A stretch of 64,000 nt of DNA from a virus (taxonomy: Duplodnaviria > Heunggongvirae > Uroviricota > Caudoviricetes): the IMG/VR virus record IMGVR_UViG_2703718817_000003; one strand, given 5' to 3'. The notes under the pieces are model-generated. The model saw only the letters and a list, made by a program, of their open reading frames with translations. It was not told where the DNA came from and did no database searches. A program made the translations under genes and the position numbers. This document shows, piece by piece, positions 2,432 to 60,690 of this stretch (position 1 is its first letter; each line of letters begins with the position of its first letter).

Positions 2432-3126
2432 CGTTTGCTATCTTCCTCACACCCAAGATATGAAAGAGATGTAATTGCTTTTGCACGGAAACCACCAACC
2501 TTGCTAAGTGCGCTTTTAAGTGCGTCAAGGTCAGATTGTGATTTGATCATGAAAGTTAACCGCGCAATTCCAGACATAGAGTCAGAACCATTCACTGCGT
2601 TGTAGTGATATATGTATCGGGTGACTGATTGAGTCACGCCCTCCTGCTGGTGGTTTATATTGGCGTCCTGTCTTGTGTTGGCCTGCTCCAACTCTTCGAT
2701 ACGTTCAGCCATCGCAGCACACTCTTCAAAGTTGCTTAATGCTTTTCGCTCCGATTCAGCGCATTGTTTTTCCAGTTCTGCTATGCGCTTACCTCCATCC
2801 GCGATTACTCCCTCGTAATGCTCGCGCTGCTCGTTGAGTTTTGATTTTGCCGACTCCAGTTGTTTTGTTAGTTCCACAATACGGCAAACATCGTTGATAC
2901 GCGTTTCCTCTAATGCGTTGATCTCATCCAGTAGTGCCAAAGCAACCTTGGGATTAAAGGCAGCAATAAATTCAGCGTTGTTTTTCAGAACGTGTTGCGC
3001 AATGGCCTGACTACTTAGTCGGACCTCATAACCACGTGCGCCACGGTGTGGTTTATATGAGTCCCAGTCTCCCCACGTTGCTTTCACTGCCGCCTCACGC
3101 AGTGCCTGGTAATTAATTTCGCTCAC
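2428..3126 (-). CDS. Ea22-like phage protein
   Basis: N-terminus [13 protein letters not shown] typical of Ead/Ea22-like family; GTG start overlapping upstream stop (GTGA). Confidence 0.7.
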   Translation of the reverse strand: MSEINYQALREAAVKATWGDWDSYKPHRGARGYEVRLSSQAIAQHVLKNNAEFIAAFNPKVALALLDEINALEETRINDVCRIVELTKQLESAKSKLNEQREHYEGVIADGGKRIAELEKQCAESERKALSNFEECAAMAERIEELEQANTRQDANINHQQEGVTQSVTRYIYHYNAVNGSDSMSGIARLTFMIKSQSDLDALKSALSKVGGFRAKAITSLSYLGCEEDSKR

Positions 3127-54817: not shown

Positions 54818-55182
54818 AAATATCAGTAACGGAGCGCCTTAGCTTAGGCAAAGAACTGTCTGAGCTGATGTCAGCGCAAAAAAGCGCGACTGCGGTACAA
54901 CGTGTCACTATTGGCGTGCGGATAGTTGAAGTGATGATGAAGCTGGGGCTTGGTTCATCGAATAATCCAGCACAACAGCAAGAAGAGGAAGTGCAACCGG
55001 CGGCACAAGAAACGCCTAAAATTGTTGCTGACTTCCTTAGTGGTGCATTTACTAAATCATCACAAATGGAGTTCATCGATGCTTTGAGAGGCATATCTCA
55101 ATATATTGGTGAATTTTTGACACTCGACCAGGCCAAAGAACAGACCGTAAACTGGGTTTCAGCTAACGGGTATGCAGCGTAA
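54811..55182 (+). CDS. hypothetical protein
   Basis: 123 aa, GTG start overlapping upstream stop. Confidence 0.4.
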   Translation: MVKISVTERLSLGKELSELMSAQKSATAVQRVTIGVRIVEVMMKLGLGSSNNPAQQQEEEVQPAAQETPKIVADFLSGAFTKSSQMEFIDALRGISQYIGEFLTLDQAKEQTVNWVSANGYAA

Positions 55183-55273
55183 AAGAGAGGGGCAGAATGC
55201 CCCTTTCTTCTTAAAATAGTCACCGAAATAACACACTTTTTACACTGCCTTTTTTACAGAAAGGTGGTTAATT

Positions 55274-56659
55274 GTGACTCAAAACGTAACATCAGCACTT
55301 CTGGCCGCAGCGAACATTGAGGGGGTTATCGCTGTGGTGTCATCTCTTGAAAAGCAAGAGACGAAGTTGGGGCGTAGCAGCTATGTCGTCACCAGCAAAG
55401 GCGACGAAGTTAAAACAGCGTTCAAGGTTATTGATGCCAAAAAGCTCATCATTTCTAACAACCTGGACGGAAGTATAAATCCGTCATTTCCGGAGGAACT
55501 CCAGCCTCGCGATCGCACCCGACTGTCAAGTAAGCTCCAGGTTAACCGTATCGCCGCCAATTTACGCCCGGCACAGCTCACTGATTCGGGTATGAGTAGT
55601 CATGGTTCCCCGATTGTTGGTCCGGATAATGTCGTTGAGTCTGGTAATGGTCGAAGCATGGGAATCTGGCGTGCTTATGAACAAGGACAGGCTGAAGATT
55701 ACCGACAATATCTTATCGATCACGCTAAAGAGTTTGGCCTTAATCCCGAAGACGTCAGGGCAATGGTGATGCCTGTACTGGTTCGCGAGCGCCTCACTGA
55801 CGTTGATCGTGCTCAATTTGCACGCGACTCAAACATCAGCGATCTGCAAGAGATGGCTGCAAGTGAGAAAGCGTATGCGGATGCGCAATTTCTCACTGAG
55901 AGCGTCATGGCGCTATTTAATCCTTCAGATGATGGAAATCTACTGGCGCGGTCCAATGATGCGTTTATTCGTGCGTTTTTGCACGAAATAGGCGATACCG
56001 CGACGGCAGGTTTGCTTACAGCCGATGGACGTCCAACGAAACAGCTTATCGATCGCATTCAGAATGCGATTTTTGCCAAAGCCTATAAGGATGAGCGACT
56101 TGTTCGGCTTGTGGCGGAAGAACCGGATCCGGAAATGCGCAATATCCTGACCGCGCTTAATACAGCAGCCAGTGACTTTGCGCAAATGCAGTCGATTTCT
56201 GGCGATGCACATCATGATGCTGTAACTGGTCTGGTTGATGGTATAGAGCAGGTGAACGGTCTGGATAAACAGGCTATAGCAGCACTCCAGGACGCGATTA
56301 ACCTTGTTCGTGAAGCCAAAGACAACGGTCAGGCAGTGGAAGAGGTGATAGCCCAGCGCGGACTCTTCGGTGATAGCACGCCGGAAGCTGAGGCGTTGGC
56401 GCTATTCATCGTGGCAAATAATCGAAGCGCGAAGCGCATGGGGGCTGCATTCAAAAAAATGGCACAAAAAATCAACGACGAACTGATTCATAAACAGCAG
56501 GCGTTGGGCGATATGTTCGGCGGTGGAGATGTCGATCTACGTAGTATTTTGACCGCTGTTTCTAATGAGATTGAACTGGAACATGGAGAGGGGAAAGGGC
56601 TTAACTTCACGATGTTCGAAGCCAAAACAGAACAAAGCGATTTTGGGCTGGAAACCTGA
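55274..56659 (+). CDS. hypothetical protein
   Basis: 461 aa, GTG start with AAGGTGG SD; terminator hairpin (CCCCGGA..TCCGGGG, 56675-56693) downstream. Confidence 0.45.
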   Translation: MTQNVTSALLAAANIEGVIAVVSSLEKQETKLGRSSYVVTSKGDEVKTAFKVIDAKKLIISNNLDGSINPSFPEELQPRDRTRLSSKLQVNRIAANLRPAQLTDSGMSSHGSPIVGPDNVVESGNGRSMGIWRAYEQGQAEDYRQYLIDHAKEFGLNPEDVRAMVMPVLVRERLTDVDRAQFARDSNISDLQEMAASEKAYADAQFLTESVMALFNPSDDGNLLARSNDAFIRAFLHEIGDTATAGLLTADGRPTKQLIDRIQNAIFAKAYKDERLVRLVAEEPDPEMRNILTALNTAASDFAQMQSISGDAHHDAVTGLVDGIEQVNGLDKQAIAALQDAINLVREAKDNGQAVEEVIAQRGLFGDSTPEAEALALFIVANNRSAKRMGAAFKKMAQKINDELIHKQQALGDMFGGGDVDLRSILTAVSNEIELEHGEGKGLNFTMFEAKTEQSDFGLET

Positions 56660-56771
56660 CCTGGCGACCGGACACCCCGGATAACCTCCGGGGGATTCGG
56701 TATTTCTTCTTTGAATAGAGCATTTTTAACAAATATCCCGTAAATCCTCGCCCAGCCAGGGCGGGGAGCAG

Positions 56772-57203
56772 TCACCGCATTGGTGTGACAGATACGGCGA
56801 TATTTTTATTCAGTTGATGCAGTGCCAGCTCGACAGTTTCAACTTTCGATGAATGTTCGACGTCGAGAAGCCGATCAATCTGTGTTCCATTTTTTCCGAG
56901 TTTGCGCGCCAACTCTGCTTTGCGTGTGCCGGTTTCTATCATCGCGTTGTGGAGTGCAGCCTTCATTGCTGGTAGCACTGGCAAAGAGACAACGTACTCA
57001 CCTTCTTTTGGCTCGCTACCAGTGGGAACAGGTCGGCGTTCTTCAATCTCAATCGCAACCGCTGCGACCAATCCATAACCAGCCTCAAGCAACGCTTCTT
57101 TAACTGAGTCACCCACGGAATTAAACAATGGTAGGTCGCGGCATGATACGACATACGCGCCGGTTTTGTCGTCGCGCTCCAGTTTTACCGGATAGTTAAA
57201 CAT
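56772..57203 (-). CDS. hicB: HicB antitoxin
   Basis: N-terminal YPVKLERDDKTGAYVVSCRDLP RNase-H-like HicB fold signature plus C-terminal HTH; downstream of hicA. Confidence 0.75.
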   Translation of the reverse strand: MFNYPVKLERDDKTGAYVVSCRDLPLFNSVGDSVKEALLEAGYGLVAAVAIEIEERRPVPTGSEPKEGEYVVSLPVLPAMKAALHNAMIETGTRKAELARKLGKNGTQIDRLLDVEHSSKVETVELALHQLNKNIAVSVTPMR

Positions 57204-57233
57204 AGAGAAGCTCCTAGTGAAAAAGGCTGGGGC

Positions 57234-57440
57234 TTAAAGCCACAGGTCCTTCATTATTTTCTTGCGTAGCGGTTCAGGCATTTCCTTTGAACCGTGGTCC
57301 GGGAAAACCGACCGCTTTCCGTTCAGGTTCACTTTCTGATGACTGCCGCCACCTGGCGCTTTCCTGAACTCTGCCCCTTGCTGGATTAACCAGCGTTTGA
57401 ACTGTGACTGCTCCCCGCCCGGTCGGACGAGGATTCCCAC
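57234..57440 (-). CDS. hicA: HicA toxin
   Basis: GSHQK, RSVFPDH, LRKKIMKDL motifs of HicA family; no ATG, putative GTG start 4 nt after tnpB stop. Confidence 0.65.
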   Translation of the reverse strand: MGILVRPGGEQSQFKRWLIQQGAEFRKAPGGGSHQKVNLNGKRSVFPDHGSKEMPEPLRKKIMKDLWL

Positions 57441-58720
57441 TTCTCAGGCCGCAACCGTCTGTTCGACGGATTTACGCTGGCCTCCATGGACAGAAACGAC
57501 GAGTCCCGCCGCCTTTAGTTCCAGTATTCCTTTTTGCCGGATGTTGAGTGCCGCATTGATATCGCGGTCATGCTCTGCTCCACATTCAGGGCATCGCCAG
57601 ATGCGTTTATGAAGAGGCATTTCCGGCATCCTGTAACCACAACAATGGCAGTTTTTCGAACTGGCAAACCACTGGTCGAGTTTTACCAGGTGAACGCCTT
57701 TTTCTGCAGCCTTGTACTCCAGCTTTGTGATGAAGCTGTGCCAGCCTGCATCACCTATCGCTCTTGCCAGATTGTGGTTTTTCATCATGTTGGCTGTTTT
57801 CAGCGTCTCCACAATTACCGCTTGGTTTTCGTCAACAATTGCACGAGAGAGCTTGTGTTGAAAATCAGCACGGGCATTAGCCACCCGTTCGTGTAAGGCC
57901 GCAAGACGGATTCTGGCCTTTTTACGATTCGCGCTTCCCTTTTGCTTACGGGATAATGCTTTTTGTTTGCGTCGCAGATTACGACCTGCATTGATGAGAT
58001 GGCGAGGATTCGGAACTTTTACAGCATCAGAAGTGATGGCATAGTGCTCCAGTCCCATATCCAGACCTGTAATCTTTTCTTCCTTCAGGTACGTGGGTTT
58101 CTCTGGTGCGGAAGCGCCATCGTCACAAAGAATGGAAGCGTAGTATTTCCCCGTTGCAGAACGGGTGACAGTGATGCTTTTCAGCTTTCCATGAAGTTCA
58201 CGATGAAGGCGTGCTTCTATCGGGGCCAGTTTGGGGATTTTGATGGCATTATCCAGCACCTTAATCCCGACACAGTGATAGCTCGATTGTTTTCCGCGTT
58301 TGCGTTTAAACGTCGGGAACCGGGCTTTCAGCTTCGGATTAAAAAAGTTGGAAAACGCCACATCAAGATTGATTACCGCCTGTTGCAATGCCATTGAATC
58401 AAATTCTTTAAGCCAGGCATATCTGCGGGACTTCTTCGCCACAGACAACAACGGCTTTAAATCTTTACGCGGACTTAAATTCACTCCGTGTCGCTGGTAA
58501 GCGTGTTTTTTGATGTGAAGAGCTTTGTTGTACGCAAAACGCACTGCACCGAACTGAGCATTGAGATACTCAGCCTGTTCAGTGGTTGGATAGATGCGTA
58601 CTTTTGTTGCTCTTAACATAGTCACGGCTCATTGATACAGGTTTTTATGCTAACACCGTAATAATATTTTTAAAGCCCTTCGAGCTTTTCCGCCTTTCCT
58701 CCCCGCCCGCATTGGGCGAG
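57415..58720 (-). mobile_element. IS605/IS1341-group tnpB-only element (ends approximate)
   Basis: tnpB with no adjacent tnpA; element ends not defined from sequence alone. Confidence 0.45.
57444..58625 (-). CDS. tnpB: IS605-family TnpB (OrfB) RNA-guided nuclease-type transposase accessory protein
   Basis: 393 aa; N-terminal KVRIYPTTEQAEYLN..RFAYNKAL, central GLDMG, C-terminal CHCCGYR...CPECGAEHDRDINAALNI zinc finger. Confidence 0.85.
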   Translation of the reverse strand: MTMLRATKVRIYPTTEQAEYLNAQFGAVRFAYNKALHIKKHAYQRHGVNLSPRKDLKPLLSVAKKSRRYAWLKEFDSMALQQAVINLDVAFSNFFNPKLKARFPTFKRKRGKQSSYHCVGIKVLDNAIKIPKLAPIEARLHRELHGKLKSITVTRSATGKYYASILCDDGASAPEKPTYLKEEKITGLDMGLEHYAITSDAVKVPNPRHLINAGRNLRRKQKALSRKQKGSANRKKARIRLAALHERVANARADFQHKLSRAIVDENQAVIVETLKTANMMKNHNLARAIGDAGWHSFITKLEYKAAEKGVHLVKLDQWFASSKNCHCCGYRMPEMPLHKRIWRCPECGAEHDRDINAALNIRQKGILELKAAGLVVSVHGGQRKSVEQTVAA

Positions 58721-58883
58721 GGTTCTCGGCGGTTGTTTGCTGAATACTTCACAAGTTTCCTTATGCGATTTATCCATCGTGGGCGATAAGAATAGCAACA
58801 CAAAAGATGTAAAACACAACAAAAATGTTTATAAACATAACTTTTGTGTTTAGTGATTGCGTTTTTGGAAAAGCATTTCCGCA

Positions 58884-58958
58884 TATGAAAAAAAACATAA
58901 ATGATGAAAAAAACATCAATAAATGGTGAAAACAACGAAAAATTACTGATGAAATCAC
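58884..58958 (+). repeat. four direct (T/G)RTGAAAA repeats in AT-rich region upstream of portal-like gene
   Basis: TATGAAAAAAAACAT, GATGAAAAAAACAT, GGTGAAAACAAC, GATGAAATCAC at ~20-bp intervals. Confidence 0.35.
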
Positions 58959-59004
58959 ACACTGGATAAGCTGCCACGAAATCGGAAACCTTTTGCGGTG
59001 AATC

Positions 59005-60690
59005 ATGGCAACGAAAGACAAAAACAAGGGCTTTCTGTCGGCATTGAAGAAAGCCTTCAGCGGTGGTGATGTTACGCCTGCCGATCCGGTCGTATTTGCG
59101 AGCGGGCATAGCGTCGTTGCTCGTTCTGGCCTGTCCGCCTTGCGTCCTGGCATCCTGGGGAGCAATAGCGATGGCATGACAAGCGCGGCGGATACTGTAT
59201 CTATATCGGCAGAATTACCGAGTGACCGCCTGCAAAAATACAACATACTGGAGACGATGGCGAAAAGTCCGACTATCTCCACAGCATTAAACATTCACAT
59301 TGCGCATTCTCTGGCTCCATCAAAAAAAACAGGCCTCGCATTTATTCTCTCTCCGAAAAATGGGGCGGATAAGGAGGCTGTAAGTCGATGTGAGGAATTG
59401 ACCGCTGATTTAAGCTCAATGATTAATGATGGCCTGCCATCGTGGGCCATGATCATGGCTATTTTCGGTGTGTCGTATATCCGTCCATATGCAGAGCAAG
59501 GGAAGGGGATAACTGGAATTGAGTCGAGCTATTACACGCTCCCTCATTTCGTTCAGGAGTTTTATCGCGGTAGCCAACTTGTCGGATTCAGCGGTGATTA
59601 TATTCTGGATACGCATACTTTGCGCAGAGTTATAACCGAACCGTGGAATCTGGTTTCCATGAAAAACCCGTACTGGATGCCTCAGCATAAAGTAATGCCA
59701 GTAACTTACGGCACTAACGGCTATTCCTTGCTTAGTGAACAGCAGGACAAGCCGTTAATGGAGACGCAGAACTACGGTACGTCGTTTCTTGAATACAGTT
59801 ATGAACCCTACCTGAATTTATGTGCCGCGCTTGCTGCGCTGAAAGCAACGCGAAACAACGCTGCAAAAATTGATCGCCTGATTGCACTCACAACGAACAC
59901 GATAGATCCGGTAAACGCGGCGAATTATACGCGCGGGGTCAGCCAGGCACTGAAGCGTCATAGCGACCTCGTAGCGCAACGGTCGATTAATTCTAATGCT
60001 CTCCCATCTGTACTTAACCATCTGATACCCGTCATGGGGGATGGGAAGAACGGGATCACCATTGATACGCAATCTATACCCGCAGATATCAGTGGTATCG
60101 AAGACGTTATGTTTCATCTCCGACAGCTCGCGGCAAGCCTCGGTATTGACGCAACAATGCTTGGCTGGGCTGATCAGATGAGTGGTGGACTTGGAGAAGG
60201 CGGTTGGCAGCAAACAGCTATCCAGGCCGCCTTACGCGCGAACTGGATCAGACAGGCCGCCCAGCGGACTATTTATCGGCTTCATGACATTCACCTCGCT
60301 TATAAATACGGGAAGGTTTACACCGAAAAAAACCGTCCTTATGACGTGCAATTCAACTCAATGAACACAGCTATCCAGGAAGAGGAAAACCGAGAGCTGG
60401 ATGCGCGCGCCAACTTCGTAGCTGTCATCTCGCAAATAATGGACCAGATCCAGAACAACCCGAAACTGGCGGGTAGCGACGCGTTTATGCGTTATCTGTT
60501 CACCGAACAGCTTCGTATCGACGATGACACTCTCAACGTAATGATCAAAGAGTTTAAGGCGAATGAATCAGAGCAAAACAACGAGCATGGTATGTACGAA
60601 TCCGCGCCGTTGTCGTCCGGTGACGATCCGGAAAACTGGACGCAAGAACAATTAATCAACTTTGCAAAATTTGTGATGAGCAATAATTAA
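59005..60690 (+). CDS. putative portal protein
   Basis: 561 aa followed by protease/scaffold-like gene; assignment by size and gene order. Confidence 0.35.
   Translation: MATKDKNKGFLSALKKAFSGGDVTPADPVVFASGHSVVARSGLSALRPGILGSNSDGMTSAADTVSISAELPSDRLQKYNILETMAKSPTISTALNIHIAHSLAPSKKTGLAFILSPKNGADKEAVSRCEELTADLSSMINDGLPSWAMIMAIFGVSYIRPYAEQGKGITGIESSYYTLPHFVQEFYRGSQLVGFSGDYILDTHTLRRVITEPWNLVSMKNPYWMPQHKVMPVTYGTNGYSLLSEQQDKPLMETQNYGTSFLEYSYEPYLNLCAALAALKATRNNAAKIDRLIALTTNTIDPVNAANYTRGVSQALKRHSDLVAQRSINSNALPSVLNHLIPVMGDGKNGITIDTQSIPADISGIEDVMFHLRQLAASLGIDATMLGWADQMSGGLGEGGWQQTAIQAALRANWIRQAAQRTIYRLHDIHLAYKYGKVYTEKNRPYDVQFNSMNTAIQEEENRELDARANFVAVISQIMDQIQNNPKLAGSDAFMRYLFTEQLRIDDDTLNVMIKEFKANESEQNNEHGMYESAPLSSGDDPENWTQEQLINFAKFVMSNN

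What the first reader, a model, noticed from the sequence alone, without database searches (positions are those of the whole stretch)
57234..58720. IS605-family tnpB abuts hicA, which lacks an ATG start
The tnpB stop (57444) is 4 nt from the only possible hicA start (GTG 57440), and the first eight HicA codons (GILVRPGG) precede the conserved HicA N-terminus. Either the tnpB element inserted into the 5' end of hicAB, leaving it to be expressed by read-through from tnpB, or the element end supplies a new start. TnpB elements derive their guide RNA from this same 3' end region, so the RNA and hicA translation start overlap.
Basis: partly seen in the sequence, partly recalled or inferred. Interest (0 to 1): 0.45.

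Follow-up and report, generated by a model that had tools for sequence, protein, structure and literature searches.

The report
TnpB insertion sequence splits hicA toxin gene
A small tnpB-only insertion sequence has landed inside codon 5 of the hicA toxin gene of a phage-plasmid, so the annotated "HicA" start is really the tail of the mobile element and its guide RNA; this is an ordinary, well-understood kind of event.

Summary
On the minus strand, the tnpB stop (57446-57444) is followed 3 nt later by GTG 57440. That GTG opens a 68-codon ORF whose last 55 codons are HicA, followed by hicB.

A 1336-bp IS200/IS605-family, tnpB-only element (57404-58739; annotated IS609 or ISEc46 in related records) inserted 3' of TTCAG inside codon 5 of hicA, with no target duplication. 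Ten E. coli plasmids carry hicAB and its ddrB-side flank at 99.1-99.4% with no adjacent IS. The two inspected hold the empty site, GTGAAGTATTCAG|AGTTCAAACGC.

The native hicA start is also GTG, with a TAAGGA ribosome-binding site. It now lies at 58752-58750, 1336 bp upstream. The first 12 codons plus 1 nt of the annotated ORF come from the element's right end.

That GTG sits in a helix of a conserved RNA structure, supported by covariation across 44 elements, and it is GTT in 15 of them. This structure is the predicted omega RNA scaffold, and its guide would be hicA codons 5-10.

Sister plasmids show hicA' decaying through a frameshift and through deletions ending at TCAG sites. hicA is therefore most likely insertionally disrupted. 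Interest is low to moderate.

The parts
58758..58763 (-). Native hicA Shine-Dalgarno sequence (TAAGGA), 5 nt upstream of the native GTG. It is now separated from the hicA body.
   Evidence: Sequence read. The same TAAGGAAACTTGTG is present in the uninterrupted loci L002 and L004.
58740..58752 (-). Displaced 5' fragment of hicA: GTG AAG TAT TCA G (native start, codons 1-4, and the first base of codon 5).
   Evidence: It is contiguous with AGTTCAAACGC in the empty sites L004 and L005 and in Enterobacter phage L002.
58740..58744 (-). Target or transposon-adjacent motif TTCAG (core TCAG) immediately 5' of the element's left end.
   Evidence: Four unrelated flanks end in TCAG (window, L003, L008, L001). 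The wider family uses TTAG.
57404..58739 (-). IS200/IS605-family tnpB-only element, 1336 bp, with no target duplication and no tnpA. Related records annotate it as IS609 or ISEc46.
   Evidence: Right end from copies at ~96.7% in hundreds of plasmids; left end and insertion point from the empty sites. Element names as written in the records. No TnpA homologue in the window.
58701..58722 (-). Left-end subterminal imperfect hairpin, CCCTCGCCC-AATGC-GGGCGGGG.
   Evidence: DNA fold -13.7 kcal/mol, z-score -2.4. Conserved in about 48 relatives.
58645..58752 (-). 35-codon ORF created by the insertion. It runs from the native hicA start into the left end and stops 25 nt before the tnpB ATG.
   Evidence: Read from the sequence. 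It is the tail of the 154-aa ORF 58645..59109.
57444..58619 (-). tnpB, 391 aa, apparently intact.
   Evidence: Pfam HTH_OrfB_IS605, OrfB_IS605 and Cas12f1-like_TNB. Aligns to ISDra2 TnpB 8BF8 at E 9e-78 with the catalytic D, E and D positions conserved.
57404..57514 (-). Predicted omega RNA scaffold with five helices:
- H1: 57514-57508 with 57500-57494
- H2: 57490-57486 with 57440-57436
- H3: 57483-57476 with 57452-57446
- H4: 57469-57465 with 57459-57455
- H5: 57432-57425 with 57420-57413
   Evidence: 44-sequence alignment A1. 98% of cells are paired, against 35-52% in slid controls. 15 of 32 pairs show compensatory changes, and 0 of 500 shuffles reach the observed score. No Rfam family matches.
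57413..57432 (-). Right-end subterminal hairpin (H5), followed by the invariant tail AGCAGTCAC that ends the element at 57404.
57388..57403 (-). Predicted omega RNA guide, AGTTCAAACGCTGGTT. This covers the last two bases of hicA codon 5 through the start of codon 10. It matches the TTCAG-flanked intact hicA of IS-free sister plasmids.
   Evidence: Position follows from the ISDra2 paradigm, in which the guide is the DNA just 3' of the right end. Cleavage was not tested.
57234..57440 (-). Chimeric ORF hicA'. The first 12 codons plus 1 nt come from the element's right end. Codons 14-68 are native HicA residues 6-60, with a G->W change at the penultimate residue (TGG, 57242-57240).
56772..57203 (-). 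hicB antitoxin gene, 143 aa, intact.
   Evidence: PF15970 at 47 bits. One amino-acid difference from the IS-free allele.
56730..56775 (+). Orphan 46-nt left-end/right-end fusion remnant of a related element, in inverted orientation. Its last 17 nt are identical to the right-end tail. It supplies the hicB stop codon and the last base of the final Arg codon.
   Evidence: Exact 17-mer found twice in the window, with 0.07 expected even allowing 3 mismatches. Repeats I6 and I7. DNA hairpin z-score -2.3. Present in IS-free plasmids and absent from L002. Its 5' half matches the family left-end consensus.

Best explanation
**Shown.**
- The window comes from a phage D6-like phage-plasmid. It carries a hicAB toxin-antitoxin module on the minus strand, in the variable slot between the ddrB-like gene and the portal gene.
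- A non-autonomous IS200/IS605-family element (tnpB only, 1336 bp, window 57404-58739) inserted in the sense orientation, immediately 3' of TTCAG, between the first and second base of hicA codon 5.
- The insertion separates the native ribosome-binding site and GTG start (58763-58750) from the rest of hicA.
- The 68-codon "HicA" ORF is a by-product. The conserved right-end sequence TGA GAA GTG GGA ... CAG TCA C happens to be open and in frame with hicA.
- The right end and the last ~70 nt of tnpB form a conserved, covarying RNA structure. The GTG is base-paired inside it, in helix 2.

**Inferred.**
- This structure is the omega RNA scaffold of TnpB, and the 16 nt of hicA just beyond 57404 serve as its guide. 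The TnpB-RNA complex would then cut TTCAG-flanked intact hicA alleles on sister plasmids and favour copying of the insertion. This is the homing or gene-drive behaviour described for TnpB.
- hicA is functionally disrupted or at best weakly expressed. There is no Shine-Dalgarno sequence at a workable distance from the GTG, and the start codon is sequestered in RNA structure.
- hicB can still be transcribed by read-through from the hicAB promoter across the element.
For: **Element ends and empty site.**
- The right end is defined by copies at ~96.7% identity with identical ends in E. coli and Salmonella plasmids.
- Exact empty sites exist in L004 and L005, whose hicAB and ddrB-side flank match the window at 99.1-99.3%; they fix the left end at 58739.
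- Uninterrupted hicA in phage L002 starts GTG AAA TAT TCA GAG TTC.

**HicA relatives.**
- All native relatives are 60 aa and start (M/V/L)KYSEF. The extension appears only in IS-bearing alleles P0001 and P0002.

**Family architecture.**
- The arrangement stop-GAAGTGGGAAGCC-hairpin-AGCAGTCAC is conserved in more than 40 elements from other genera, all ending at GTCAC.
- RNA covariation: 98% of cells paired and 15 compensatory pairs. The GTG's third base is U in 15 of 44 elements, with a compensating C->A in its partner.
- TnpB is intact, with D, E and D conserved.
- There is no tnpA in the window.

**Decay of hicA' in sister plasmids.**
- L009 and L010: four non-synonymous changes plus a frameshift.
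- L011 and L012: 40 bp deleted.
- L007: hicA' and about 35 codons of hicB deleted.
- All three sequenced hicA' alleles of the window type (window, L003, L006) carry G->W at a glycine that every native relative inspected keeps, and that aligns with the C-terminal glycine of E. coli HicA 6HPB.
Against: - Expression was not measured.
- The window's own hicA' is otherwise intact. It is in frame, keeps the catalytic-region GSH motif, and even regains an S-Q-F sequence resembling native S-E-F.
- The TGA-GAA-GTG arrangement could allow termination-reinitiation coupling with tnpB, because ribosomes translating tnpB would open helices 2-4.
- The chimeric 68-aa allele P0001 is seen intact on 275 contigs, so decay is not universal.
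- No sigma-70 consensus promoter was detected for any gene here, so the read-through idea is untested.
- Guide length, the motif requirement and nuclease activity are inferred from ISDra2, not tested for this element.
Confidence: 0.85

Rival explanations
1. The chimeric HicA' is a working toxin. Transcription from the hicAB promoter or a tnpB promoter reads through the element. Ribosomes terminating at the tnpB TGA reinitiate 3 nt later at GTG 57440. The 68-aa protein folds normally with a floppy 12-residue N-terminal tail and is neutralised by HicB. The toxin-antitoxin module would then remain active and be coupled to tnpB expression.
For: - The ORF is in frame and uninterrupted, and the HicA domain scores above the Pfam cut-off.
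- Alignment to E. coli HicA 6HPB starts at residue 2 of the toxin, so the core is complete.
- hicB is intact.
- The related chimeric allele P0001 is intact on 275 contigs.
- Stop and start are 3 nt apart and in the same frame.
Against: - The GTG is part of a conserved RNA helix and is GTT in 15 of 44 related elements, so it is not maintained as a start codon.
- The only purine-rich stretch (GAG) lies 2 nt from the GTG. The native gene has TAAGGA at 5 nt.
- Sister lineages carry a frameshift, several missense changes and deletions in hicA', while hicB changes little.
- The window's own allele and two sister alleles (L003, L006) carry G->W at a conserved glycine.
Confidence: 0.15
2. hicAB is passenger cargo of the insertion sequence. 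The true right end would be the hairpin downstream of hicB at 56743-56775, and the N-terminal extension would be native to this HicA.
For: A right-end-like hairpin with an identical 17-nt tail lies just beyond hicB.
Against: - That copy is on the opposite strand, so it is inverted.
- It is already present in plasmids that lack the element, L004 and L005.
- Copies of the element elsewhere, in IncI plasmids and phage RCS47, end at the position equivalent to 57404 with unrelated flanks.
- More than 40 relatives have the right end directly after tnpB.
- An exact empty site exists.
Confidence: 0.01
3. The same junction in several diverged plasmids reflects repeated independent insertion into a hot-spot TTCAG, rather than one ancestral event spread by recombination or homing.
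For: - The elements at this site differ by 4-6% and carry two right-end hairpin variants, while the hicA'B flanks differ by under 1%.
- Other TCAG sites in hicA and hicB are also used as junctions.
Against: - Right-end variant and hicA' allele type occur in all four combinations: window, L003, L009 and L011. This indicates recombination rather than separate origins.
- Window, L003 and L006 share the G->W and a synonymous change.
- About 175 TTCAG sites are expected per ~90-kb plasmid on random-sequence arithmetic, which makes exact reuse unlikely without selection.
Confidence: 0.15

Closest known systems
IS200/IS605-family tnpB-only elements of Enterobacteriaceae, annotated IS609 (insQ) in AP024477 and ISEc46 in phage RCS47
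   Same: - Same TnpB domain set.
- Same left-end and right-end hairpins and the same GCAGTCAC terminus.
- Same TCAG target and no target duplication.
- 96.7-96.8% DNA identity to the IncI-plasmid copies and 80% to the RCS47 copy.
   Different: - This copy has no match above ~97% in the collections searched.
- Its right-end hairpin has three substitutions (AATCCTCGTCCGACC against AAGCCTCGCCCGACA) that keep pairing through G-U.
- I could not check the ISfinder name assignment.
ISDra2 TnpB with its omega (right-end) RNA (PDB 8BF8, 8EXA, 8H1J)
   Same: - The protein aligns over almost its full length (E 9e-78) with the catalytic D, E and D conserved.
- A structured RNA overlaps the tnpB 3' end and the right end, and the guide position lies immediately outside the element.
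   Different: - The target motif here is TCAG (TTAG in the wider clade), against TTGAT for ISDra2 (from my own knowledge).
- No tnpA is present.
- The RNA structure is inferred from covariation. No Rfam model matches it.
E. coli K-12 HicA/HicB (PDB 6HPB) and the 60-aa MKYSEF HicA subfamily of Enterobacterales
   Same: - The core sequence from SEF/SQF to the C-terminus aligns.
- The histidine in the G-S-H motif is kept.
- hicB lies downstream.
- The native start is non-ATG.
   Different: - The N-terminal MKYSE is replaced by 13 residues, of which 12 codons plus 1 nt are element-derived.
- The native ribosome-binding site and promoter are displaced by 1336 bp.
- The penultimate conserved Gly is Trp.
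[quoted passage not shown]
   Same: An IS605-family element on a plasmid whose predicted guide matches the uninterrupted allele found on closely related plasmids.
   Different: Nothing here demonstrates cleavage or biased inheritance. The element lacks tnpA, so a new insertion would need a transposase supplied in trans.

Membership tests
IS200/IS605 family (tnpB-only element) | TnpB/OrfB protein with HTH, OrfB_IS605 (RuvC) and zinc-ribbon (TNB) domains. | tested here: met
   PF12323 at 68.5 bits, PF01385 at 87.7 bits and PF07282 at 87.7 bits, all above their cut-offs.
IS200/IS605 family (tnpB-only element) | RuvC catalytic Asp-Glu-Asp triad intact. | tested here: met
   In the alignment to ISDra2 TnpB 8BF8, GLDMG, VIVETL and HDRDINAALN align with GVDVG, IIGTEH and HDRDENAALN. 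The residue numbering D191/E278/D361 is from memory.
IS200/IS605 family (tnpB-only element) | Subterminal imperfect hairpins at both ends on the same strand, with no terminal inverted repeats. | tested here: met
   Left-end hairpin 58722-58701 and right-end hairpin 57432-57413, both on the tnpB strand. Conserved with compensatory changes in relatives.
IS200/IS605 family (tnpB-only element) | Insertion 3' of a specific tetra- or pentanucleotide, with no target-site duplication. | tested here: met
   Empty site GTATTCAG|AGTTC against the filled site GTATTCAG[IS]AGTTC. TCAG is found at four unrelated left flanks, and TTAG in about 48 relatives.
IS200/IS605 family (tnpB-only element) | Y1 (HUH) transposase TnpA. 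This defines autonomous members. | tested here: not met
   Only 120 nt separate the left end from tnpB. tblastn with the TnpA-like ORF of relative L016 (assigned from its position beside tnpB and its HVHLL motif, not scanned against Pfam) finds nothing in the window (best E 0.17). The element is non-autonomous, as are many family members.
IS200/IS605 family (tnpB-only element) | Structured guide RNA (omega or right-end RNA) overlapping the tnpB 3' end and the right end. | tested here: met
   Five helices, 98% of cells paired, 15 compensatory pairs, 0 of 500 shuffles reach the observed score, slid controls 35-52%. Existence of the transcript was not tested.
IS200/IS605 family (tnpB-only element) | RNA-guided, motif-dependent DNA cleavage. 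| not testable with these tools
   Needs a plasmid-interference or in vitro cleavage assay.
HicA toxin (PF07927) | HicA double-stranded-RNA-binding-like domain scoring above the Pfam threshold. | tested here: met
   32.4 bits against a cut-off of 27, residues 13-66. E 5.5e-11 to 6HPB.
HicA toxin (PF07927) | Conserved catalytic-region histidine (G-x-x-H). | tested here: met
   GGGSHQK aligns with GSNHLK of E. coli HicA. The functional role of this His is from the literature as I recall it.
HicA toxin (PF07927) | Native N-terminus and its own translation signals, (M/V/L)KYSEF preceded by a Shine-Dalgarno sequence. | tested here: not met
   Replaced by element-derived MGILVRPGGEQSQ. The native TAAGGA-N5-GTG lies 1336 bp upstream.
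HicA toxin (PF07927) | Cognate HicB gene immediately downstream. | tested here: met
   hicB at 57203-56772, PF15970 at 47 bits.
HicA toxin (PF07927) | mRNA-interferase toxicity neutralised by HicB. | not testable with these tools
   Needs an expression and rescue assay.

The most novel reading that the evidence does not exclude
The insertion may not be simply a knockout. The element sits in the sense orientation inside an autoregulated toxin-antitoxin operon, which suggests three linked effects.
- tnpB and its guide RNA would come under the HicB-controlled hicAB promoter.
- The guide (hicA codons 5-10) would let TnpB cut intact hicA on co-resident or incoming D6-like phage-plasmids. This would drive the insertion through the plasmid family, or exclude competitors.
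- A weakly coupled HicA' together with HicB would keep an addiction function linked to the element.

The right-end-adjacent deletions that stop exactly after TCAG sites would then record element-mediated remodelling of the toxin gene, whether by a transposase supplied in trans or by a second insertion followed by recombination.
Probability: 0.1. Interest if true: 0.55.

Novelty: new member of a known kind. Interest (0 to 1): 0.25.

Why it matters
**Mainly an annotation correction.**
- The 68-aa "type II toxin-antitoxin system HicA family toxin" in this window is a chimeric ORF created by an insertion sequence, not a HicA variant with a novel N-terminus.
- Its close relative P0001, seen on 275 public contigs, is the same kind of chimera.
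- Counts of intact toxin-antitoxin modules in D6-like phage-plasmids would be inflated by such calls.

**Secondary value.**
- The locus is a clean natural example of a TnpB element with both the filled and the empty site in near-identical plasmids.
- It gives a defined target motif (TCAG, or TTAG in the wider clade).
- It gives a covariation-supported guide-RNA scaffold that Rfam does not hold.
- It offers a series of decay products: a frameshift, motif-bounded deletions, and 46-48-nt fusion scars of the two ends.

Together these make a convenient system for testing TnpB homing between plasmids.

Tried and rejected
- **Rfam scan** of 55000-60500 at E <= 1. It returned only a spurious snoRNA hit and no described family for the right-end RNA. 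I therefore built an alignment of 44 right ends and tested covariation myself.
- **Single-sequence RNA fold** of the tnpB 3' region. The z-score was -1.1, which is uninformative alone.
- **Promoter and terminator scan**. The numbers found were no higher than in shuffles. There was no outward promoter in the right end and no consensus hicAB promoter, so nothing can be concluded about transcription.
- **Phage collection search** with the locus. It gave only three partial hits. The backbone was identified as D6-like with a different query.
- **Passenger-cargo idea**, prompted by the inverted right-end-like hairpin beyond hicB. Rejected because that hairpin pre-exists in IS-free plasmids and is on the other strand.
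- **Native-extension idea.** Rejected using protein relatives.
- **tnpA elsewhere in the window.** None found.
- **Literature search for IS609 plus TnpB**. Nothing specific to this element.
- **Not done:** I did not predict structures for HicA', because a disordered tail would not settle whether it is expressed.
Full report
**1. What is in the sequence**

- On the minus strand, tnpB runs from ATG 58619 to the TGA stop at 57446-57444. It encodes 391 aa with the Pfam domains HTH_OrfB_IS605, OrfB_IS605 and Cas12f1-like_TNB.
- Three bases later, GTG 57440 opens a 68-codon ORF ending at 57234. Residues 13-66 of that ORF match HicA_toxin.
- hicB follows at 57203-56772 (HicB-like_2).
- The module lies between a plus-strand ddrB-like gene (55274-56659) and the portal gene (59005-60690).
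- The backbone is 88.9% identical to phage D6, a P1-related phage-plasmid. D6 itself has two unrelated small genes in this slot. hicAB is therefore an accessory module in a variable position.

**2. Where the mobile element ends**

- Megablast against complete E. coli genomes and against PLSDB finds hundreds of copies of the tnpB element at about 96.7% identity in unrelated contexts, such as IncI plasmids. The matches share their ends at window 57404 and 58743.
- The last four bases at the left end of those matches are the shared target TCAG.
- Ten E. coli plasmids of 89-94 kb carry hicAB and its ddrB-side flank at 99.1-99.4% identity with no adjacent IS.
- In the two I inspected, L004 and L005, the site reads CTTGTGAAGTATTCAG|AGTTCAAACGCTGG and hicA is a 60-aa gene.
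- In the window, GTGAAGTATTCAG sits at 58752-58740, directly outside the left end. AGTTCAAACGCTGG begins at 57403, directly outside the right end.
- The element is therefore 57404-58739, 1336 bp. It inserted between the first and second base of hicA codon 5, 3' of TTCAG, with no duplication.
- An Enterobacter phage with 86% identical hicAB (L002) confirms the native start GTG AAA TAT TCA GAG TTC, preceded by TAAGGA.

**3. The N-terminal extension is element-derived**

- The first 12 codons and one base of the annotated ORF are the last 37 nt of the element: GTG GGA ATC CTC GTC CGA CCG GGC GGG GAG CAG TCA C.
- Protein relatives in a 5.8-billion-sequence collection are all 60 aa and begin (M/V/L)KYSEF. 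Longer gene calls merely run upstream through a V or L that marks a GTG or TTG start.
- The extension occurs only in two clusters: P0001 (MGSLARQGGEQSQ..., 275 contigs) and P0002 (MLVRPGGEQSQ...). Their representative loci, L003 and L006 for P0001 and L009 and L010 for P0002, all sit next to the same element.
- Absence of an ATG is a native trait of this HicA subfamily, not a result of the insertion.

**4. The right end is a conserved structured RNA, and the GTG is part of it**

- I collected 80 loci encoding relatives of this TnpB (59-83% aa identity) from Photorhabdus, Serratia, Aeromonas, Idiomarina, Halomonas and other genera.
- All full-length ones share the same layout: tnpB stop, GAAGT(G/T)GGAAGCC, hairpin, AGCAGTCAC, then unrelated flank.
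- An alignment of 44 right ends folds into five helices.
  - 98% of cells are paired, against 35-52% when partners are slid.
  - 15 of 32 pairs have compensatory double changes.
  - No shuffle out of 500 reaches the observed covariation.
- Three helices lie inside the tnpB coding sequence and still covary.
- Helix 2 pairs 57490-57486 with 57440-57436, so it includes all three bases of the GTG. In 15 of 44 elements the codon is GTT, with a compensating C-to-A change in the partner.
- The GTG is therefore kept for RNA pairing, not as a start codon.
- By analogy with ISDra2, this structure is the omega RNA scaffold. The TnpB here aligns to ISDra2 TnpB at E 9e-78 with the catalytic D, E and D conserved.
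- The guide would then be the 16 or so bases beyond 57404, AGTTCAAACGCTGGTT. This inference is not tested. Rfam has no matching model.

**5. Target motif**

- Four unrelated left flanks of the E. coli sub-lineage end in TCAG.
- About 48 relatives end in TTAG.
- The five bases preceding the left-end hairpin differ correspondingly: GAGAA against GTAAA. This fits the known use of a short internal guide by IS200/IS605 transposases to read the target (my own knowledge). I could not fix the pairing register.

**6. Is hicA' a working gene?**

Evidence for disruption:
- The native TAAGGA-N5-GTG now heads a 35-codon ORF that runs into the left end and stops at 58645.
- The new GTG has only GAG two bases upstream, and it lies in a helix.
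- Sister plasmids show decay.
  - L009 and L010 share the window's junction and right-end variant. Their hicA' has four non-synonymous changes and a frameshift, against four changes in the 435 nt of hicB.
  - L011 has the right end joined after the second TTCAG of hicA (57364), losing helix 1 of the toxin.
  - L012 has the same junction, but the element is reduced to a 48-nt fusion of the left-end hairpin and the right-end tail.
  - L007 has the right end joined after a TCAG in hicB (57104), losing hicA' and about 35 codons of hicB.
- The window, L003 and L006 alleles share Gly-to-Trp at the penultimate residue. This glycine is kept in every native relative inspected and aligns with the C-terminal Gly of E. 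coli HicA.

Evidence against disruption:
- The window's ORF is otherwise intact.
- The junction fortuitously recreates S-Q-F for native S-E-F.
- The stop and start are 3 nt apart, so coupling to tnpB translation is conceivable.
- P0001 is common.

I put about 0.15 on a functional, coupled HicA'.

**7. Spread among plasmids**

- Elements at this site differ by 4-6% and carry two right-end hairpin variants, while the hicA'B flanks differ by under 1%.
- Hairpin variant and hicA' allele occur in all four combinations: window, L003, L009 and L011. This indicates recombination among plasmids and element copies.
- In L003 the left flank is no longer hicA, which points to a rearrangement between element copies.
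- The predicted guide matches the intact hicA of IS-free plasmids exactly, with TTCAG in place. That is the configuration in which TnpB homing and plasmid gene drive have been demonstrated for other elements (PMC10055086; bioRxiv 10.1101/2025.02.20.638934). Whether it operates here is untested.
- The element has no tnpA, and none is present in the window.

**8. Verdict**

- This is an ordinary insertion of a known kind of element into a toxin gene, resolved to the base.
- The annotated HicA start is an artefact of an open, in-frame element end.
- Interest is low to moderate. The value lies in the annotation correction and in a tidy natural system for TnpB biology.

Noticed in passing
window 56730-56775 (+ strand): A 46-nt remnant that fuses a family-type left end (CAAATATCCCGTAAATCCTCGCCC...) to the right-end tail (GGGCGGGGAGCAGTCAC, identical to 57420-57404 on the other strand). 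It abuts hicB and supplies its TGA stop codon and the last base of the final Arg codon. It is present in IS-free plasmids and absent from the Enterobacter phage, where hicB ends CGC TAG. hicAB has therefore been hit by this element family at both ends, at different times.
   Followed up: partly
L007 (~3015-3018), L011 (~4044), L012 (1-84); equivalent window sites 57104 and 57364: In sister plasmids the left end stays at the original hicA site, but the right end is joined to DNA immediately 3' of another TCAG: the second TTCAG in hicA, or a TCAG in hicB. The interval between is deleted. Two independent endpoints both fall on one of only three TCAG sites in ~630 bp. This implies a motif-dependent process: either transposase-type cleavage, or a second insertion followed by recombination between copies.
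   Followed up: partly
L012:37-84: The full element has collapsed to a 48-nt scar, CAAACAACCGCCGAGAACCCTCGCCCAATGCGGGCGGGGAGCAGTCAC. The collapse was apparently by recombination between the near-identical left-end and right-end hairpins. It is read through as part of a "partial HicA" protein call (P0021).
   Followed up: partly
window 57240-57242 (minus-strand codon TGG): The hicA' alleles in the window, L003 and L006 carry Gly->Trp at the penultimate residue (DLGL -> DLWL). IS-free alleles and all distant relatives keep Gly. The same base change weakens the GGGGC/GCCCC hairpin that spans the hicA stop codon.
   Followed up: partly
window 57438-57446: The tnpB stop codon and the hicA' start are in the same frame (TGA GAA GTG). 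Read-through of the TGA would therefore give a TnpB-HicA' fusion protein.
   Followed up: no
window 58723-58727, compared with the left ends of L013-L092: The five bases before the left-end hairpin are GAGAA in the TCAG-targeting E. coli sub-lineage and GTAAA in about 48 TTAG-targeting relatives. This is a correlated change between the internal sequence and the target motif.
   Followed up: partly
window 58796-58954: The AT-rich region between the hicA promoter side and the portal gene holds four copies of a ~17-nt motif (AAACATAAATGATGAAA-like). It also holds a 20-nt perfect-centre palindrome at 58812-58851. These may be operator or promoter elements for hicAB or the portal operon.
   Followed up: no
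L003 5100-5300, compared with window 58740-58900: In five ~94-kb E. coli plasmids the element's left flank is not hicA but an unrelated sequence ending CATTTCAG, and the ddrB-like gene lies on the other side of the module. This indicates a rearrangement between two element copies.
   Followed up: partly
L093 (phage D6 25273-26207), compared with window 56660-59004: Phage D6 carries two small same-strand genes (orf23, orf24) where the window and related plasmids carry the opposite-strand hicAB. The ddrB-prt interval is a swap site for accessory genes.
   Followed up: no
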